Virus record (IMG/VR): IMGVR_UViG_2731957841_000003
Length of the DNA stretch: 29,158 nt
DNA from: a virus
Taxonomy: Duplodnaviria > Heunggongvirae > Uroviricota > Caudoviricetes
Direction: 5' to 3' (one strand)
The notes beneath the pieces are model-generated. The model saw only the letters and a program-made list of their open reading frames with translations, made no database searches and had not been told where the DNA came from. The translations under genes and the position numbers were made by a program. This document shows, in pieces, positions 3,910 through 27,606 of the stretch (positions are counted from its first letter, which is position 1; each line of letters starts with the position of its first letter).

Positions 3910-4549
3910 TTGTCGGTGTACCTCTCTCGTTTACTCAGTTGTTCAGGAATATGGTGCAGCAGCTCACCGTCACCACAGTAAATGGCGGCATGATTCGGCA
4001 CCGATGAACCAAAACAGCACAGCAGCACGTCGCCAGGCTGCGCCTCTGTCAGTGGGACACGGTAAAAACCCGTTGCCTCCATATTGTCAAGATAGAGATT
4101 CTGGCCGTGACGCCACCAGTCATCCCCGCGATGAAAATCCGGCATCTCAATTCCCGCCAGATGGTAAGCGTCCCGGAACAGCGTGTAACAGTCCGTCACC
4201 CCGTGCTCAAAGCGCCGCCCGGTGAGATGCGGCACACAGAGGAATTTATGAATCGCCCCCGGCAGACCAGCCACCACGGCAAATCACTCTGCACCTGCAG
4301 CCGCCGGTCGGCCTCACTCAGCCAGGGCAGACCACCGGGGTGGCTGTGGACCAGCGCCACAATCTCTCCCTGCATTTCTGCCTGCAGCCAGTCTTCCGGC
4401 GACATACGGAAATACGCCTCCGGCTCACCGGAGATATTCACGCAGGGGAAATATCTTTCCCCCTCCGGCGTGCTTACCACGAAGCCGCACGACTCCGCTG
4501 GCGCACATCGCCGGGCGTGCGCCAGAATCGCTGATTCTGTCTGTGTCAT
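3807..4549 (-). pseudogene. K: Tail assembly protein K-like (MPN/JAMM HSHPGG motif plus NlpC/P60-like C-terminal part), split by a frameshift into ORFs 4196..4549 and 3807..4277
   Basis: N-terminal ORF ends ...DLPWWLVCRG then out-of-frame tail; C-terminal ORF continues ...IHKFLCVPHLTGRRFEHGVTDCYTLFRD... in another frame. The frame switch maps to the C5 run at 4256..4260. Confidence 0.7.
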
Positions 4550-5253: not shown

Positions 5254-5591
5254 CAGATTACCACTTCGTCAAACTGACACGAAAAATCGGTATAGGTGAT
5301 ATGTTCTGTCGCTGACCACGTTCGACACACCACTCTGATTTTTCTGTTAATACCCGGCGGGCGCCAAAAAAAAGATTTATAGCCTTCATGCCGGGCTAAA
5401 AATTTTTCAAATGAATCACGTTCATTCGCCTCAACTTTGAAATCACAGGTGAAAACGCGCAGAGAATGATTAAGTCCATTTGGACTTCGTTGCTCATAAC
5501 CATCGCCAAATCTTACAGTTTTTATCGATGGTTTATTTTCTGTTTTCATTCCATCCTCTGGTAACCAGTGAAATTCTTCCGTATTAGCCAC
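5253..5591 (-). CDS. M: Minor tail protein M
   Basis: 112-aa ORF with ...VRFGDGYEQRSPNGLN... resembling lambda gpM; start overlaps the tape measure stop and its stop overlaps the L start. Confidence 0.8.
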   Translation of the reverse strand: MANTEEFHWLPEDGMKTENKPSIKTVRFGDGYEQRSPNGLNHSLRVFTCDFKVEANERDSFEKFLARHEGYKSFFWRPPGINRKIRVVCRTWSATEHITYTDFSCQFDEVVI

Positions 5592-8500
5592 TTAACATTC
5601 CCCCATCACGTCGCATATTTAACAGATTGCCCTGCACCCGCTGATCAACCATCCCCATAAGTGCTTTTATTGCCTGAGGGCCAATCTCTCCATTCTGGCC
5701 GTCATTTTGAATAGTGATTTGGTATACAGGGGCATAGGTAATATCTCCGCCTCCATTACCACTTTTACTATTAATAGCTCTGACACCAAGAGAACCATCG
5801 GAAGTTCGTGTTAATGGCATAATGGCTTCCGGACCAGCCTCACCAAAAACACCAGCCCCTCTTGCAAAAGCAAAAAATTGCGGGGAGTCATAAATACCGT
5901 TCGAATACGTGTTCAATGACGGAGACTCATAAACACCGCCCTTTGCATTCGGAATAAATTTACTAATAGCACTCCCGATAGTTCCTAAAATCCCCCCAGA
6001 AGAACTGTTACTAATGCTGTCGAAAATCCCAGTAATTGAAGCCTTTAATGCTATTCGACTAAGATCCGAAATCACGGAAGTAGCGAAAGAACGAAAATTT
6101 GCCTTGCCTGTCGTGACAAAATCACCCAGCGCATCGGTCATTCCATCAAACATCTGAGTCGTGGTTGATTTTATCTGCTCACTGATATCCTTAGTGTCAT
6201 CCAGCCAGTTATTGAATCCCTGGGAGGCACCACTAACCCAGTCTCCTGCCTGAATATCGAGCTGCTCGTTTTTCTGTCTGACAATTTCTTTTTCTCGTTC
6301 CAGAGCATCATTCAGAGCCTGCATTTTCTCCTGAAAAACATGATTTGACATCCCACGGGATTTATCTGCATAGTCACGTTCAAGTTGCAGACGCTGATTG
6401 TTATATTCACGTTCAATCCGCAGTAATTCCTGCTGGCGTTGCTGATTTTTATCGCCAACCCCATAACCAGCAATCTGAATATCATACCCCTGTTGACGAT
6501 TATCAATCGAAGCCTGCAATGAATCACGCCATGCAGCTATTTCGGCGGATTCCTTGATTAGCCTGTTATTTTTTTCAATCGCAACATTTTTCTCCATCAA
6601 CGCGGTTATTTCTTCCCGGTGTAAGAGAAGCGATTTCTGATCCTGGGTTAATTTCGATGACGGTCGTGACTCCAGGTCGGCAATCTGCTGACGCCACTTA
6701 ACCAGTTCCTGTTCAGAGGAACTTAATTTAACGGTTAATTCAGTTTGTGAACTTAGTAACGCATTCTGTTGATTCAGATGATCAATCATTCGTTGGGCAG
6801 CATCATCCGAATAACCTTTCGCCTTTGGTTGCTTTGGATCTTTATAACGTTCATTTATTTGAGCGATAAAATTATTATATTCTTCCTTTGAATACTGACT
6901 CTTTAGCTTTTCCAGTTTTGCAAGTTCACTAGCTCTCTGCTGCTCCCGGGTCTGATATTGTTTTGAAAAGGCATCTGCTCTCTGTCTGAGTTCAATTCCT
7001 TCCTGTTGTCGCTTGTTGTAATCGTTTATTGATGAATTTAGGACGTCCTGAGCAATTTTTTCTGCTTGAAGTACGCCCAATTGCTGCTTTAATCGTGCCA
7101 GCCTTTTATTTTGAGCTCCGCCATCTCCAATGCCACCTAACCCGAAAACTCCGGGTCGGGTATTTTTTCTATTTCATCAATTTGACGGAGAACATCTGAG
7201 ATTTTTTGATCAAGGGAGGCCTCACGGCCAATATCCAGCATGGAATCCCATGCCCATTTTGCGGAGTCTGCGACAGCTTTCCATGCAGTCTCAAGATAAC
7301 CAAGATTTTCTTTAATCTGGTTGGTGCGCTGGATCATTGAGGATGAGTATGCTTCTGTCGCAATGCGGGCGGCCTCCTGCTGGTTCCCTTCATCCTGTAG
7401 CGCCTTAATCTGGTTATAAGTCGCAATTGTCAGAAAATGGTACTGATCATTAAGTTTTGATATGGCACTGACAGGATCCTTTGCAATTTCATTGAAGTCA
7501 TTAACCAGTTGTTCGGTTGATATTCCTGTTACTTCGCTCGTTTTTACTATCGCTGTCGTCACTTGCTCCAGCGAACTGCTCGCTACCTTTCCCGAACGCA
7601 CAAGCTGGTTTAATACTGCCGCCGCAGCGCCAGTTGTCGAATCAGCCGCATTCCCGGCACGTTGAGCTATATCGGCCAATTGCCCGCTGGTTGTCCCCAA
7701 CTGATTTCCGGTAAGAATAAGAGATTTATTAAATTCGTCCTGCTCCTGAGAGCCTTTATAGTAAGCCAGCCCTAAGACGCCAACGGCTGCTGCGGCCAGG
7801 GTAAAAGGATTAATTAATCCCAGCACATAAGAACCAACACCTTTGATCGCCGGGCCAATCCCACCGAACATATCTTTTAGCTGGCCGCCCTGCTGCATTA
7901 ACACCATAAAAGGCGACTGACCAGTGGACAACCCAACAACAATATCCGTCATTTGTGCAGGCAACATGCGCATAGCAAAAGCCGTTTGTTTTGCCGACAT
8001 TCCGGTTTTGCTTAATTGAGATTGAGTAACCTCAAGCTCACTCCGCATAGCACGAAGTTTTCCAGAAAGTTCCTCATACATTTCAGGAGAGAGCATCCCC
8101 TTAGCTTTTGCTTCATTGAGCTGTTTCTGTTGTTCTACCAGACGATTAAAAGCAGTTCCGACAGGGTCAAGTTGAGCAATCAGACGTTGCAAAGCAGCAA
8201 CCTGTTCATCATGCGCTTTTGCTGCTTCTCGCTCTGCCTGAGCCTCTCCGGTAAGCTCTCGCCGTGTTTCCTGTATTTTTCGGCTATAATTCTCAAACTG
8301 AGAACCATTTATTTTCCCGGATGCAAACGCAGCATTAAGTTCATCCTGCTGTTGTTCAAGATTTCTTAGCGCCGCAGCCAGAGGGTCGATCTTGTCCAGC
8401 ATTCTTTGAAAGGCCTGAGCCTGCGCTTCCTGCTGGGCGGCAGCAAGTTTTCCGGCCTTCTCGGCTTCTCTCTGCGCTTGCGCAACCCCGCTCAATTCCT

Positions 8501-8816
8501 CTGTGGTTTCATTAAGTTTACGGACAAGAAATTCATATTCTTCTTTATCAATAAGCCCTTTATCGAAAAATTTCTTTAATTCAGAATAGCGTCGACCGAC
8601 AGTATCAATTGCGGCACCAACTGGATCAATAGCTGCTTTTAATTTTGCGAGCGCGTTCTTCTCATCTTCTGTTGCCTTAGTCACTTTCCCTGCGCTATTT
8701 GCAGCAGTTTCCCCGGCCTGCGTCATTTTGACTAATGAGGAGGTCAGATTGTCAGCATTATTTTTTGCTCCAGTGCTATCAATAATTATTGCGAGACGCG
8801 AGGTTTGCTCTGCCAT
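5584..8816 (-). pseudogene. H: Tail tape measure protein, interrupted by a frameshift (ORFs 7137..8816 and 5584..7080)
   Basis: Two long coiled-coil-rich ORFs in different frames, both open across 7140..7173. The region contains a T6/A6 homopolymer (7163..7168). Combined length of about 1060 aa and position upstream of M/L/K/I fit a tape measure protein. Confidence 0.75.
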
Positions 8817-8979
8817 TTATTAAAACTCCAGACAACAAAAAGCCCACCGAAGTGGGTTTCAGGCGACATAATAGTAGATATAGCGATTACGAGGCCACGC
8901 AATGCTTTTCTCCAGGAGCATCATCGATTTAATTAAAGACACCATCACATCTCTGTAACAGAGTGTACGTAATTAACAA

Positions 8980-9578
8980 CTACACACACTGATCCTGAAA
9001 ATACTGGTCATCCAGTGCAAAGATCACTGCTTCAAACTCATCGCGCTCAATCAATACCGGATGAGTGGCTAAATATTCATTTATCTCTGTCAGAGATAAA
9101 GGCAAAGGCACCCCGGTCATTCCAGCATAACGTCGGGCACGGGATATTACCGAATAGGCGTACAACAATTCCTTAAGCACCGGGTCTATTTCTGGTTCCG
9201 GTATCGGTGGCAACCTGAGTTTTTCTCGCTTCCATCTTGCCTTTTCCCCCCTTTCTCCCCCGAACTCCGATAACCACCGCTGGGCGGCTATGGCTTTTTT
9301 ATCGTATCCTGCTTCTGCTGCTCTTTACCCTGGGCGATGCTGGCTGCTTCTGCAAGGATCTGCCAGTACAACTCTGGATTCTGCTTAAGCAGCGCGATCC
9401 CTCGTTCTGGCGTATATTCCAGTGCAACCTCAGCACCATTAACCAGTTCACCAACCCCTTTCCAGTCTTTCAGCAGATAACGAGCAGCATTATCAATGAG
9501 TAAATCATCAACAGAATCTACCTCGGAAACCTTTGAAATATCAAACTCCTTCGTTCCGACGTGCAAACTGGCATCCAT
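8980..9578 (-). CDS. GT: Tail assembly chaperone GT-like fusion produced by a predicted -1 ribosomal frameshift at 9294..9300
   Basis: The -1 frame is open from 9324 down to 8980 and joins the G frame at the heptamer (mRNA ...AUA AAA AAG CCA UAG; -1 reading gives KKAIAAQRWLSEFGG...PPIPEPEIDPV...). Conserved G/GT arrangement upstream of tape measure genes. Confidence 0.55.
9288..9578 (-). CDS. G: Tail assembly chaperone, G-like (0-frame product)
   Basis: 96-aa ORF immediately upstream of the tape measure gene; ends ...DTIKKP* with an A_AAA_AAG slippery heptamer in frame 6 codons before the stop. Confidence 0.6.
   Translation of the reverse strand: MDASLHVGTKEFDISKVSEVDSVDDLLIDNAARYLLKDWKGVGELVNGAEVALEYTPERGIALLKQNPELYWQILAEAASIAQGKEQQKQDTIKKP
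9294..9300 (-). other. Putative programmed -1 frameshift slippery heptamer A_AAA_AAG
   Basis: Plus-strand CTTTTTT is AAAAAAG on the minus strand, in the X_XXY_YYZ register of the G ORF, with the -1 frame open downstream. Confidence 0.55.
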
Positions 9579-9598
9579 TTTCTCAATGTGACGACGGA

Positions 9599-9796
9599 TT
9601 AATGCATTACGGGAGCGATACTGATCGTTATCGCTGCTTCACCTTTCGCTCTGCCCTTACGGATGGCCGCATAAAAATCTGTCATTGCTTCCCGATTTTC
9701 TTTCAGTCGGTTCAGATCAACATCCAGAACGTCAGCGATTTGTTGTGCAGTCATCCGGCACGCTGCCAGAGACTCGACTTTCGAATACGGAATCAT
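9599..9796 (-). CDS. Small hypothetical protein with HTH-like segment (possible remnant of a packaging/terminase small subunit gene)
   Basis: 65-aa ORF (…MTAQQIADVLDVDLNRLKE…). Its 5' end overlaps the 3' end of the upstream ORF by 65 nt. Weak call. Confidence 0.25.
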   Translation of the reverse strand: MIPYSKVESLAACRMTAQQIADVLDVDLNRLKENREAMTDFYAAIRKGRAKGEAAITISIAPVMH

Positions 9797-10664
9797 TTGT
9801 CACCCCCATTGATATGCAGGGTGTCTTCTTCCTGTATTTTTCGTGAAGGATTTTTACTGCAGCGTTGTTCCAGGTGACCTGATGGTGAATGCGTTTATGG
9901 CTGGCACCCATCAGTGAAATTTTTACGCACGACGGCGCATACATGACGGAGTAAAAACTTTTAACGTAGGTTCCGGAATCCAGATACAGCTCGGTCATTC
10001 CGCCGCTGTTTTTCTGCGTCTGTTTCTGCCCTAACTGGACAGCACCGATCGTCATAAACAATTCACCACAGCGACCGAGATTCGTGTACGTATTCACATC
10101 CTCGTTAATGCGCCCCATGAATGAGAACGGTCGATCAACCGAACAGATAAAGCTGTTCATTGCCTTGCGTTTCACCCACGAAGCATGGCCGCCATTGTCA
10201 CCAAGAAAATCCCCGCCCTGCGACATAGCGATGGAAAGAGCAGGTATTGATTCGTAGTACGCCAGCATTTCAGAAAGGATCGCATCCAGTTTCCTTATCG
10301 GAAAATAGGCCTGGTCATAGTTGCGATCCACCCGAAACTGGAACTCGTGATAATCATCATCGAGCTGAATGAAGTATTTACACCCGACCAGTTTTGCCAG
10401 GTCGAAACAGGCATTACGGGCGTAAAAAATTGAGCGGCGGTCACAGAAATTATCGGCTTCGTCAAAACGACTGGCGATATCGGTTTTGGAAAACACCAGC
10501 ACCTGTTCACCAAATTCAGCCATGTACTGATGCCGTGTCTTATCTTCATCATCAACAACGATAAAAATTTTCCCGGTATAGCCAGCACGACGCAACGTCC
10601 GGTAAGTCAGAACTTTGTCTGGTCGCCCGTGAGTCAGAATAAAGGCGCAAAAATCATCACGCAT
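9732..10664 (-). CDS. Hypothetical protein, unknown function (possible GT-A-like fold: ...IFIVVDDED... and ...QLDDDY...)
   Basis: ORF listed as 317 aa; likely start is the ATG at 10664 (MRDDFCAF...) preceded by GGAGGAGGAGG, 2 nt after the ParB-like stop. No motif secure enough for a functional call. Confidence 0.5.
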   Translation of the reverse strand: MRDDFCAFILTHGRPDKVLTYRTLRRAGYTGKIFIVVDDEDKTRHQYMAEFGEQVLVFSKTDIASRFDEADNFCDRRSIFYARNACFDLAKLVGCKYFIQLDDDYHEFQFRVDRNYDQAYFPIRKLDAILSEMLAYYESIPALSIAMSQGGDFLGDNGGHASWVKRKAMNSFICSVDRPFSFMGRINEDVNTYTNLGRCGELFMTIGAVQLGQKQTQKNSGGMTELYLDSGTYVKSFYSVMYAPSCVKISLMGASHKRIHHQVTWNNAAVKILHEKYRKKTPCISMGVTNDSVFESRVSGSVPDDCTTNR

Positions 10665-11448
10665 ATTCCTCCTCCTCACCACCATGCATGATCTCCACCA
10701 TGCGCTGCGTCATCCGGACAAATCCATTTTCAATAGCCTGCTGATAATCAATGATCACCAGCGCCGACTCCTCGAAAAAACACTGAATTTCAGCGGGGGC
10801 GTGAGCGTAATAGTCCGCAATTCTGCTGAAATTAAACACCGTGTGACGTTCTGCCGCACACAGGAGGAATTTCTCAATATCAGGCTCAAGGGACGCCGAA
10901 CGTATCCGGCTGATCAGCTCCTGAGTTTTCGTATCGTCGTACAGTTCACTGATATCCGGTTTACCGCCCGACGGCTCATAAACAGGCGTATCAATTTTCG
11001 TCGTATACGGCTCCTCCTCATTTCCTGTACCGGGCAAAACATCCGTCAACAGTTCATCAATTTCTGTCGGGATGAAGCCTGTCAGGGAGACATCAAAATC
11101 AGCATTGATTAGGTCCGACAGCTCCATCCGCAACAGATCTTCATCCCAGCCAGCATTCATCGGCAGGCGATTATCTGCCAGGCGGTACGCCTTTTTCTGC
11201 TCATCCGTCAGGCCAGACAGAACAATGACCGGAACAGAATCCATTTTGAGCATTTCAGCCGCCATAACACGACCGTGACCCGCAATAATTTCGCCCTTTT
11301 CGTCAATCAGCACCGGATTAGTCCAGCCGAATTGCTTAATACTTTCTACCAGTTGTGCCACCTGCTCAGGGCTGTGCGTCCTGGCGTTGTGCGCATACGG
11401 TGACAATTCTTGTAATGGGCGATAGACTATCTTTAATTTCTCGCTCAT
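10657..11448 (-). CDS. ParB-like nuclease domain protein (ParB/Srx N-terminal domain)
   Basis: N-terminus ...LQELSPYAHNARTHSPEQVAQLVESIKQFGWTNPVLIDEKGEIIAGHGRVMAA... fits the ParB N-terminal domain signature; acidic C-terminus. Confidence 0.7.
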   Translation of the reverse strand: MSEKLKIVYRPLQELSPYAHNARTHSPEQVAQLVESIKQFGWTNPVLIDEKGEIIAGHGRVMAAEMLKMDSVPVIVLSGLTDEQKKAYRLADNRLPMNAGWDEDLLRMELSDLINADFDVSLTGFIPTEIDELLTDVLPGTGNEEEPYTTKIDTPVYEPSGGKPDISELYDDTKTQELISRIRSASLEPDIEKFLLCAAERHTVFNFSRIADYYAHAPAEIQCFFEESALVIIDYQQAIENGFVRMTQRMVEIMHGGEEEEYA

Positions 11449-15859: not shown

Positions 15860-15934
<75 letters not shown>

Positions 15935-15937
15935 ATA

Positions 15938-16013
<76 letters not shown>

Positions 16014-27417: not shown

Positions 27418-27606
27418 ATGTATAAAATTACCGCCACTATTGAAAAGGAAGGTGGCACTCCTACTAACTGGACAAGATATTCAAAATCTAAACTAACGAA
27501 ATCAGAATGCGAAAAAATGCTCTCAGGTAAAAAAGAAGCAGGCGTTTCCAGAGAGCAGAAAGTAAAACTGATAAATTTTAATTGCGAGAAACTTCAGTCC
27601 TCGTGA
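27418..27606 (+). CDS. ydaC: Rac-type small protein YdaC
   Basis: 62-aa ORF MYKITATIEKEGGTPTNWTRYSKSKL... with SD GGAGG at 5-nt spacing; position between ralR and xis. Confidence 0.7.
   Translation: MYKITATIEKEGGTPTNWTRYSKSKLTKSECEKMLSGKKEAGVSREQKVKLINFNCEKLQSS

What the first reader, a model, noticed from the sequence alone, without database searches (positions are those of the whole stretch)
8980..9578. Predicted programmed -1 ribosomal frameshift (A_AAA_AAG) generating a G/GT-type tail assembly chaperone pair
The 96-aa ORF upstream of the tape measure gene ends 6 codons after an in-register A AAA AAG heptamer, and the -1 frame is open from that point for a further ~100 codons down to 8980 (KKAIAAQRWLSEFGG...IPEPEIDPVLKELLYAYS...). 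This reproduces the conserved G/GT frameshift of long-tailed phages and suggests the chaperone pair is intact even though neighbouring genes are damaged.
Basis: partly seen in the sequence, partly recalled or inferred. Interest (0 to 1): 0.5.

Follow-up and report, generated by a model that had tools for sequence, protein, structure and literature searches.

The report
Relic tail-chaperone frameshift in Rac prophage
The slippery site and the second reading frame are real and belong to the well-known phage tail-chaperone frameshift, but here they sit in ydaY, a gene fragment of the defective Rac prophage of E. coli that has lost its beginning, so this is an ordinary relic and not an intact working pair.

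Summary
An in-register A_AAA_AAG lies at 9300-9294 on the minus strand. The -1 frame is open from it for 104 codons, to the stop at 8982-8980. The 0-frame stop follows after one codon, not six.

The claim that the pair is intact is wrong. The window is a Rac-type defective prophage and the ORF is ydaY. Intact relatives encode a 149-aa protein just after the tail tube gene. Here codons 1-33, the native start, the tail tube gene and all head genes are deleted. The 96-aa ORF starts at internal Met54, and the tape measure gene is frameshifted.

I found no conserved stimulatory RNA structure. This is a known mechanism, unannotated in this family, and of low interest.

The parts
9294..9300 (-). Slippery heptamer A_AAA_AAG, in register with the ydaY/G frame (codons ATA AAA AAG).
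   Evidence: The same codon position holds AAAAAAG or GGGAAAG in nearly all homologues.
9288..9638 (-). ydaY remnant, equal to codons 34-149 of the tail assembly chaperone G plus the TAG stop (9290..9288). It is preceded in frame by TGA at 9641..9639.
   Evidence: tblastn against the intact G matches residues 34-149 at 98%. PHROG 313 'tail assembly chaperone' scores E 7.7e-29 for the 96-aa ORF and 4.9e-46 for the intact 149-aa protein. PGAP names it 'protein YdaY'.
9288..9578 (-). It uses the first canonical start after the junction, which is internal Met54 of G.
   Evidence: the intact protein reads ...RRHIEKMDASLHVG....
8980..9294 (-). T reading frame (-1 relative to G): 104 sense codons from 9294 to 8983, plus TAG at 8982..8980. 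It is reachable only by a shift at the heptamer.
   Evidence: PHROG 1189 E 5.6e-36. Pfam Phage_TAC_18 matches below threshold in 7 of 13 members. dN/dS is 0.18 for the linker and 0.11 for the core in this frame only.
9639..9640 (-). Deletion junction. A small ORF that lies upstream of the terminase small subunit gene is joined to G codon 34, with microhomology AAGC. All head genes, the tail tube gene and the 5' end of G are lost.
9267..9293 (-). Local hairpin directly 3' of the heptamer (11 pairs; -14.7 kcal/mol for the 45-nt segment). It is not significant and not conserved outside the E. coli clade.
   Evidence: z -1.09, 24 of 200 shuffles fold as well. The alignment fold gives -3.1 kcal/mol with essentially no covariation.
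5584..8816 (-). Tape measure gene downstream of T, split into 559-aa and 498-aa ORFs by loss of one A in an A7 run at 7168. Intact relatives encode 1077 aa.
8843..8856 (-). Terminator-like hairpin (CCCACTTCGGTGGG followed by CTTTTTGTTG) in the 163-nt spacer between the T stop and the tape measure start.

Best explanation
The window is a Rac-type defective lambdoid prophage of E. coli, and 8980-9638 on the minus strand is what remains of its tail assembly chaperone cassette.

In the intact phage, gene G (149 aa, named 'YdaY' by PGAP) lies between the tail tube gene and the tape measure gene. Most ribosomes terminate just after the heptamer and make G. A minority slip back one base on A_AAA_AAG, with both lysine tRNAs re-pairing on AAA AAA, and continue for 104 codons to make a 252-aa GT fusion. 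By analogy with lambda, the G part binds the tape measure protein and the T part recruits the tail tube protein, with the two products made in a fixed ratio from one message.

Shown here: the site, the open frame, their conservation, coding selection on the -1 frame, and the genomic position. Inferred: that slippage actually happens, its efficiency, and the binding roles.

In this window the signal and the T frame survive unchanged. However, a deletion has removed G codons 1-33 with its start, the tail tube gene and the head genes, and the tape measure gene is frameshifted. The cassette is therefore a non-functional relic. At most, a truncated 96-aa G' and a 199-aa G'T could be made from internal Met54.
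For: Identity of the locus. trkG, ynaK, ydaY and the RalA sRNA are all present.

Synteny. Intact relatives have tail tube, then G (149 aa), then a -1 ORF, then a 1077-aa tape measure protein.

Conservation of the site. All 96 loci fetched by similarity to G, and the window itself, have a heptamer at the same codon. It is A_AAA_AAG in most and G_GGA_AAG in Raoultella, Serratia and Pantoea, which changes Lys to Gly while keeping the site slippery. The one exception is G_GGG_AAG in Pectobacterium. The 0-frame stop lies 1, 7, 25 or 35 codons downstream. Acinetobacter phage TRS1, a separately fetched phage record, also has G_GGA_AAG there, and its chaperone CDS is already annotated as a two-piece join. 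Erwinia phage Gungnir39 and two Pseudomonas phages lack a canonical heptamer there (see evidence against).

Coding selection. The -1 frame protein is conserved from the first codon after the heptamer. dN/dS is 0.18 over codons 1-30 and 0.11 over codons 31-95, against 1.5-2.3 in the other frames. There are 0 stops in the -1 frame against 17 and 18 in the others. Three homologues have no ATG, GTG or TTG in the first 45 codons.

Literature. [quoted passage not shown]

Truncation. tblastn covers only residues 34-149, and the junction sequences are. The G model places strands 13-16 and 29-33 in the deleted part.

Damaged partners. There are one-base losses in the tape measure gene and in the K gene.
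Against: No experiment shows the frameshift product for this family. No conserved downstream stimulatory structure or clearly placed upstream Shine-Dalgarno-like element was found, so the efficiency is unknown.

A few relatives lack a canonical heptamer at the homologous codon. These are Pectobacterium L093 (G_GGG_AAG), Erwinia phage Gungnir39 (C_GCA_AAG followed by TAA) and the Pseudomonas phages (G_GAA_AAG).

The one-base 'damage' in the tape measure and K genes lies in homopolymer runs and could be sequencing error. If so, the tail module would be less decayed than stated. The G truncation is a large deletion and cannot be such an error.
Confidence: 0.88

Rival explanations
1. One reading: an intact and potentially functional G/GT chaperone pair that survives in a damaged prophage.
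For: The heptamer and the full 104-codon T frame match those of intact phages, with 3 amino-acid differences in T. The retained part of G is 98% identical to the intact protein.
Against: G lacks codons 1-33 and its native start. The ORF begins at Met54, so 53 of 149 residues are missing, including two predicted beta strands of the core sheet. The tail tube gene, whose product would be T's client, is deleted, and the tape measure gene is frameshifted. K-12 carries the same truncated ydaY.
Confidence: 0.03
2. T is an ordinary separate gene with its own start, as current annotation has it: 'hypothetical protein' of 61-66 aa in the annotated records seen, or the 77-aa TTG ORF at 9213..8980 listed mechanically here. 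On this view no frameshift is involved.
For: PGAP and phage depositors annotate a short separate ORF. Database proteins for T start at many different internal codons.
Against: The 30 codons between the heptamer and any candidate start are conserved as protein (dN/dS 0.18) and free of stops in 11 of 11 diverged loci. L070, L091 and L096 have no ATG, GTG or TTG in the first 45 codons. The called starts are inconsistent between records. The heptamer is conserved at the exact point where conservation of the -1 frame begins.
Confidence: 0.05
3. The frame change is made by RNA polymerase slippage on the A run (transcriptional realignment) and not by the ribosome.
For: The site contains six consecutive A residues. 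A and T runs are known slippage sites for RNA polymerase (PMC3711429).
Against: Reported transcriptional slippage needs longer runs: more than 7 A or more than 8 T (PMC3711429). Family members replace the site with G_GGA_AAG, which has only three A residues but is a classical ribosomal heptamer. The site is conserved in triplet register, as ribosomal slippage requires.
Confidence: 0.03
4. A chance coincidence of a common heptamer with an accidentally open frame.
For: AAAAAAG is not enriched in the window (15 observed against 10.7 expected).
Against: Only 0.2% of shuffles of the stretch keep the -1 frame open. The site and the frame are conserved down to 55% protein identity and in Acinetobacter phage TRS1.
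Confidence: 0.01

Closest known systems
Bacteriophage lambda gpG / gpGT (programmed -1 frameshift at G_GGA_AAG; Levin 1993 and Xu 2004, 2013, 2014, as summarised in PMC5009743)
   Same: The gene pair lies between the tail tube gene and the tape measure gene. The -1 shift occurs near the 3' end of G on a lysine-codon heptamer. The extension is about 100 residues and has no start of its own. Neither system shows a required downstream structure. Some members of this family use lambda's exact heptamer.
   Different: No sequence similarity to lambda G or T was detected; only PHROG 313 and 1189 and a weak Phage_TAC_18 match were found. In this clade the 0-frame stop follows one codon after the site. 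The window copy is truncated at its 5' end and has no client proteins.
HK97 tail assembly chaperone (PDB 2OB9)
   Same: It is the best structural match of the predicted G fold among 48,164 solved chains, with 79 residues aligned at 3.3 A rmsd. It is also a frameshifting chaperone of a lambdoid siphovirus.
Acinetobacter phage vB_AbaS_TRS1 tail assembly chaperone TRS1_18/19
   Same: Its T domain is 37.5% identical to the window's T. The heptamer G_GGA_AAG sits at the equivalent ...VGK... codon, followed by a 110-codon -1 frame. The frameshifted product is annotated as a joined CDS.
   Different: It comes from a distant host and carries a full-length G. The 0-frame continues for 26 codons after the site.
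E. coli K-12 ydaY (b1366) in cryptic prophage Rac
   Same: It is the same gene fragment, with G codons 34-149, the same heptamer and the same open 104-codon T frame, followed by a tape measure remnant (ynaA).
   Different: K-12 has a larger deletion on the left, so ynaK is cut to 87 aa and abuts ydaY. Its tail genes are more decayed. In K-12 the T frame is not annotated at all.
E. coli dnaX tau/gamma frameshift (A_AAA_AAG)
   Same: It uses an identical heptamer and the same slippage of lysine tRNAs (PMC3711429; PMC5009743).
   Different: dnaX has an upstream Shine-Dalgarno-like stimulator and a downstream hairpin, and shifts at about 50% to give a shorter product. Here no conserved stimulators were found, and the shift lengthens the protein.

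Membership tests
G/GT-type tail assembly chaperone with programmed -1 frameshift | Two overlapping ORFs located between the major tail (tube) gene and the tape measure gene. | tested here: met
   Met in intact relatives L001 and L002, which have tail tube, then G, then T, then tape measure. In the window only the tape measure side remains, because the tube gene is deleted.
G/GT-type tail assembly chaperone with programmed -1 frameshift | [quoted passage not shown] | tested here: met
   A_AAA_AAG lies at 9300-9294. The same codon holds AAAAAAG or GGGAAAG in all of the loci fetched by similarity to G except L093 (GGGGAAG), and GGGAAAG in Acinetobacter phage TRS1. Three more distant phages (Gungnir39 and two Pseudomonas phages) have non-canonical sites.
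G/GT-type tail assembly chaperone with programmed -1 frameshift | The downstream ORF is in the -1 frame, is coding from the shift site onward, and has no conserved initiation site of its own. | tested here: met
   dN/dS is 0.18 for the linker and 0.11 for the core in the -1 frame only. There are 0 stops. Three of 11 diverged loci have no start codon in the first 45 codons.
G/GT-type tail assembly chaperone with programmed -1 frameshift | Sequence or fold relationship of the upstream product to known tail assembly chaperones. | tested here: met
G/GT-type tail assembly chaperone with programmed -1 frameshift | The frameshift fusion protein is actually produced, at a low fixed ratio to G. | not testable with these tools
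   This needs a reporter assay or mass spectrometry. No paper in the searchable library links ydaY to frameshifting.
Functional (intact) chaperone pair in this window | A complete G reading frame with its native start and N-terminal domain. | tested here: not met
   Only residues 34-149 are encoded. TGA at 9641-9639 precedes them, and the first start codon is Met54.
Functional (intact) chaperone pair in this window | Presence of the client genes, namely the tail tube protein and an intact tape measure protein. | tested here: not met
   The tail tube gene is absent. The tape measure gene is split by loss of one base at 7168.
Frameshift sites with RNA stimulators (dnaX or IS911 type) | A conserved downstream hairpin or pseudoknot 5-9 nt after the heptamer. 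| tested here: not met
   The consensus fold of 12 diverged sequences gives -3.1 kcal/mol. The single-sequence z-scores for 11 sequences range from -1.6 to +1.3. The window's own hairpin has z -1.09 and is specific to its clade.

The most novel reading that the evidence does not exclude
The truncated cassette is kept because it is useful to the host. A 96-aa G' and a 199-aa G'T, made from Met54 through the still-perfect slippery site, would retain the T domain that binds tail tube protein and part of the tape-measure-binding domain. They could poison tail assembly of superinfecting Rac-like or lambdoid phages, acting as a dominant-negative chaperone that serves as a prophage-encoded defence. 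The many independent Rac deletions that end inside the 5' part of G or at the start of the T core would then reflect selection and not chance.
Probability: 0.03. Interest if true: 0.6.

Novelty: new member of a known kind. Interest (0 to 1): 0.15.

Why it matters
The practical value is for annotation. In RefSeq and GenBank records of Rac-like prophages and phages, the upstream gene is named only 'protein YdaY' or 'hypothetical protein'. The -1 ORF is called as a short hypothetical protein with inconsistent starts, or, in K-12, not called at all.

The comparative data here justify annotating YdaY-family genes of intact phages as tail assembly chaperone G, with a ribosomal-slippage GT product. 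They also justify annotating K-12 ydaY as a 5'-truncated pseudogene of that chaperone.

Biologically this adds one more family to the conserved G/GT frameshift. It gives a tidy example of the heptamer switching between A_AAA_AAG and G_GGA_AAG while its position stays fixed. It changes nothing about how the mechanism is understood.

Tried and rejected
Downstream stimulator. I folded 124 nt and 45 nt after the site in the window and in 10 homologues, and ran an alignment fold of 12 sequences. There was no significant or shared structure.

Upstream Shine-Dalgarno-like element. An AGGA lies 6 nt upstream of the heptamer in many members. It is absent in L092, L093 and L094 and is confounded by the conserved Q-E/D-T codons (by inspection). 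From my own knowledge, the dnaX stimulator is spaced about 10 nt upstream, so the spacing here would be short. I did not pursue this.

Profile search of the G alignment against PDB sequences gave no hit even at E 10.

Foldseek of the T model against the PDB gave nothing below E 2.8.

Pfam and NCBIfam scans of G gave no hit in the local copies. The precomputed label PF27119 is not in the local Pfam, so its name could not be read.

Rfam over the whole window found nothing in or near the cassette.

Literature searches for ydaY together with frameshift or Rac prophage found nothing relevant.

The alternative in-register heptamer G_GGA_AAA, 30 nt upstream, is present in some homologues only. In the window it reads G_GGT_AAA and is not slippery, so I rejected it as the site.

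I also considered whether the ORF could be read as a fusion with the upstream 65-aa ORF. It cannot: the frames differ, and a TGA at 9641-9639 closes the G frame.

Full report
**What is in the sequence.** All features are on the minus strand. The 96-aa ORF 9578..9288 ends ...GAT ACG ATA AAA AAG CCA TAG. The heptamer A_AAA_AAG (9300..9294) is therefore in the X_XXY_YYZ register of the ORF, and the 0-frame stop follows after a single codon. The -1 frame opens nine codons before the heptamer. From the shift point it reads AIAAQRWLSEFGGERGEK...FALDDQYFQDQCV for 104 codons, to TAG at 8982..8980. The heptamer alone is unremarkable: there are 15 in the window against 10.7 expected. An open -1 frame of that length is rare: 44 of 20000 shuffles keep it open, and the other two frames carry 9 and 6 stops.

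**Where the window comes from.** The region matches 1256 of 5426 complete E. coli genomes, where the ORF is annotated 'ydaY: protein YdaY' next to a tape measure gene. The window also carries trkG, ynaK and the RalA sRNA. This is the cryptic prophage Rac. K-12 MG1655 has ynaK, then ydaY, then a 470-nt stretch with no annotation, then ynaA (a tape measure fragment).

**What the intact version looks like.** In complete Rac-like prophages and phages (E. coli strain 190, L001; Salmonella phage SPF_0923, L002) the order is tail terminator, tail tube, a 149-aa protein, a short -1 ORF, a 1077-aa tape measure protein, then the M, L, K, I and J homologues.
- The 149-aa protein matches PHROG 313 'tail assembly chaperone' (E 4.9e-46). 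The window's ORF matches only profile positions 72-149.
- The T frame matches PHROG 1189 (function unknown). It also matches Pfam Phage_TAC_18 below threshold in 7 of 13 family members.
- The T model (pLDDT 82, helical) has no solved counterpart.

**Comparative test of the frameshift.** I fetched 80 viral contigs and 14 genomes that encode relatives of G, down to 55% identity, and also looked at several annotated phages.
- Every locus fetched by similarity to G has a heptamer at the same codon of the conserved C-terminal motif T-V/I-(K/G)-K. It is A_AAA_AAG in Escherichia, Salmonella, Shigella, Citrobacter, Siccibacter and Scandinavium. It is G_GGA_AAG in Raoultella, Serratia and Pantoea, and also in Acinetobacter phage TRS1. 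The amino acid changes from Lys to Gly while the site stays slippery.
- The 0-frame stop varies between 1, 7, 25 and 35 codons downstream. The conserved element is therefore the heptamer, not the stop.
- The exceptions are G_GGG_AAG in one Pectobacterium contig, C_GCA_AAG followed directly by TAA in Erwinia phage Gungnir39, and G_GAA_AAG in Pseudomonas phages. All three keep the A_AAG half-site.
- The -1 frame protein is conserved from its very first codon (A-I/L-E/A-A-Q-x-W-L-x-E-F-G-G-E...).
- Over the 30 codons between the heptamer and the T core, dN/dS is 0.18 in the -1 frame, against 1.6 and 1.5 in the other frames. That frame has no stop in 11 diverged loci, against 17 and 18 stops in the others. 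Three loci have no ATG, GTG or TTG in the first 45 codons.
- T therefore cannot be an independently initiated gene, although annotation pipelines call it as one with inconsistent starts. TRS1's homologue is already annotated as a joined frameshift product.
- Both heptamers are described as highly shift-prone in E. coli, and the G/GT mechanism and its roles are established for lambda (PMC5009743). HK97-like chaperone frameshifts measured in reporters gave 6-7% (PMC3711429).

**Stimulatory elements.** In the window an 11-pair hairpin starts directly after the heptamer. It is no better than 24 of 200 shuffles (z -1.09), it degrades within the E. coli clade and it is absent elsewhere. An alignment fold of 12 sequences gives -3.1 kcal/mol with essentially no covariation. 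I conclude that the heptamer acts alone, as (from my own knowledge of Levin et al. 1993) it does in lambda. The efficiency is unknown.

**Transcriptional slippage.** This is unlikely. The A run is only six long, and other family members use GGGAAAG.

**Why the pair is not intact here.**
- Homology between the window and intact loci begins at 9639, which corresponds to G codon 34.
- Upstream of that point the window continues with the 5' part of a 69-aa ORF that normally precedes the terminase small subunit gene. The junction is GGTGAAGC|AGCGATAAC, with AAGC present in both parents. About 10 kb has been lost, comprising the terminase genes, portal, capsid, connector and tail tube genes and the first 33 codons of G.
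- An in-frame TGA (9641-9639) closes the G frame, and the first start codon is the internal Met54 at 9578. The missing part contains two predicted strands (13-16 and 29-33) of the chaperone's beta sheet.
- The tape measure gene has lost one A from an A7 run at 7168, which splits it into 559-aa and 498-aa ORFs. The K homologue has lost one G from a G6 run at 4260. These could in principle be sequencing errors. The G truncation cannot.
- The K-12 type of Rac carries the identical truncation of G.

**Verdict.** For the YdaY family the frameshift is strongly supported by comparative evidence, and it is not annotated in most records. This makes it a new member of a known kind and useful for annotation. 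In this window it is a relic inside a pseudogene of a defective prophage. Interest is low.

The only more adventurous reading I cannot exclude is that the truncated G' and G'T products are expressed and interfere with tail assembly of incoming phages. Nothing here supports that beyond the preservation of the site and frame, which a recent deletion explains equally well.

Noticed in passing
window 9639-9640 and 11195 (minus strand); L089 2499-2501; L102: The window and K-12-type Rac have different left deletion endpoints: a small ORF before the terminase small subunit gene here, and the inside of ynaK in K-12. Yet both share the same right endpoint, to within 1-3 nt, at G codon 34. Either K-12's deletion happened second and ended exactly at the older junction, or this spot is a hotspot.
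   Followed up: partly
proteins P0012, P0013, P0016, P0022, P0025, P0043 (fused into G codons about 26-45) and P0122-P0125 (fused to T at PEPEIDPV): The protein database holds many distinct Rac-type deletion alleles in which various upstream genes (ynaK, terminase genes, a 93-aa ORF, G's own N-terminus) are fused in frame. The fusion points fall within a narrow stretch of G or at exactly the same residue of T. The clustering of right-hand endpoints is unexplained. Gene callers favour in-frame fusions, which may bias what is seen.
   Followed up: partly
window 9353-9344 and 9318-9309 (minus strand); protein P0009: A 10-nt direct repeat GCAGAAGCAG occurs twice, 35 nt apart, just upstream of the heptamer. 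P0009 (240 aa, E. coli) reads ...QILAEA|GYDKKAIAAQ.... This is what a deletion between the two repeats would give: a hard-wired in-frame G-T fusion with no need for slippage.
   Followed up: partly
window 8843-8856 (minus strand), within the 163-nt spacer 8817-8979: A terminator-like hairpin (CCCACTTCGGTGGG followed by CTTTTTGTTG) lies between the T stop and the tape measure start, inside what should be one late operon. It is kept, with a slightly longer stem, in Salmonella phage SPF_0923. Its function was not examined.
   Followed up: no
window 7168 and 4260: The tape measure and K (C40 peptidase) genes are each broken by loss of a single base in a homopolymer run (A7 to A6, and G6 to G5) relative to intact prophages. 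These may be real decay or sequencing error.
   Followed up: partly
L093 2920-2926; L100 about 1985-1995; L098 and L101 (site ...CTG GAA AAG CCA...): Some relatives lack a canonical heptamer at the homologous codon: G_GGG_AAG in Pectobacterium, C_GCA_AAG followed directly by TAA in Erwinia phage Gungnir39, and G_GAA_AAG in Pseudomonas phages. The conserved -1 frame still begins there. This suggests slippage of a single tRNA on A_AAG, in one case next to a stop codon.
   Followed up: partly
window 27424-27602 (minus strand); 15863-16013 (minus strand): The RalA antitoxin sRNA of Rac is present (225 bits), and two adjacent tRNA genes lie inside the prophage.
   Followed up: no
window 9732-10685 (minus strand): A 317-aa ORF between ynaK and the deletion junction matches PHROG 842, 'beta-glucosyl-HMC-alpha-glucosyltransferase' (E 7e-104), and one PGAP record names the gene there 'GREB1-related protein'. 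It is absent from K-12 Rac.
   Followed up: no
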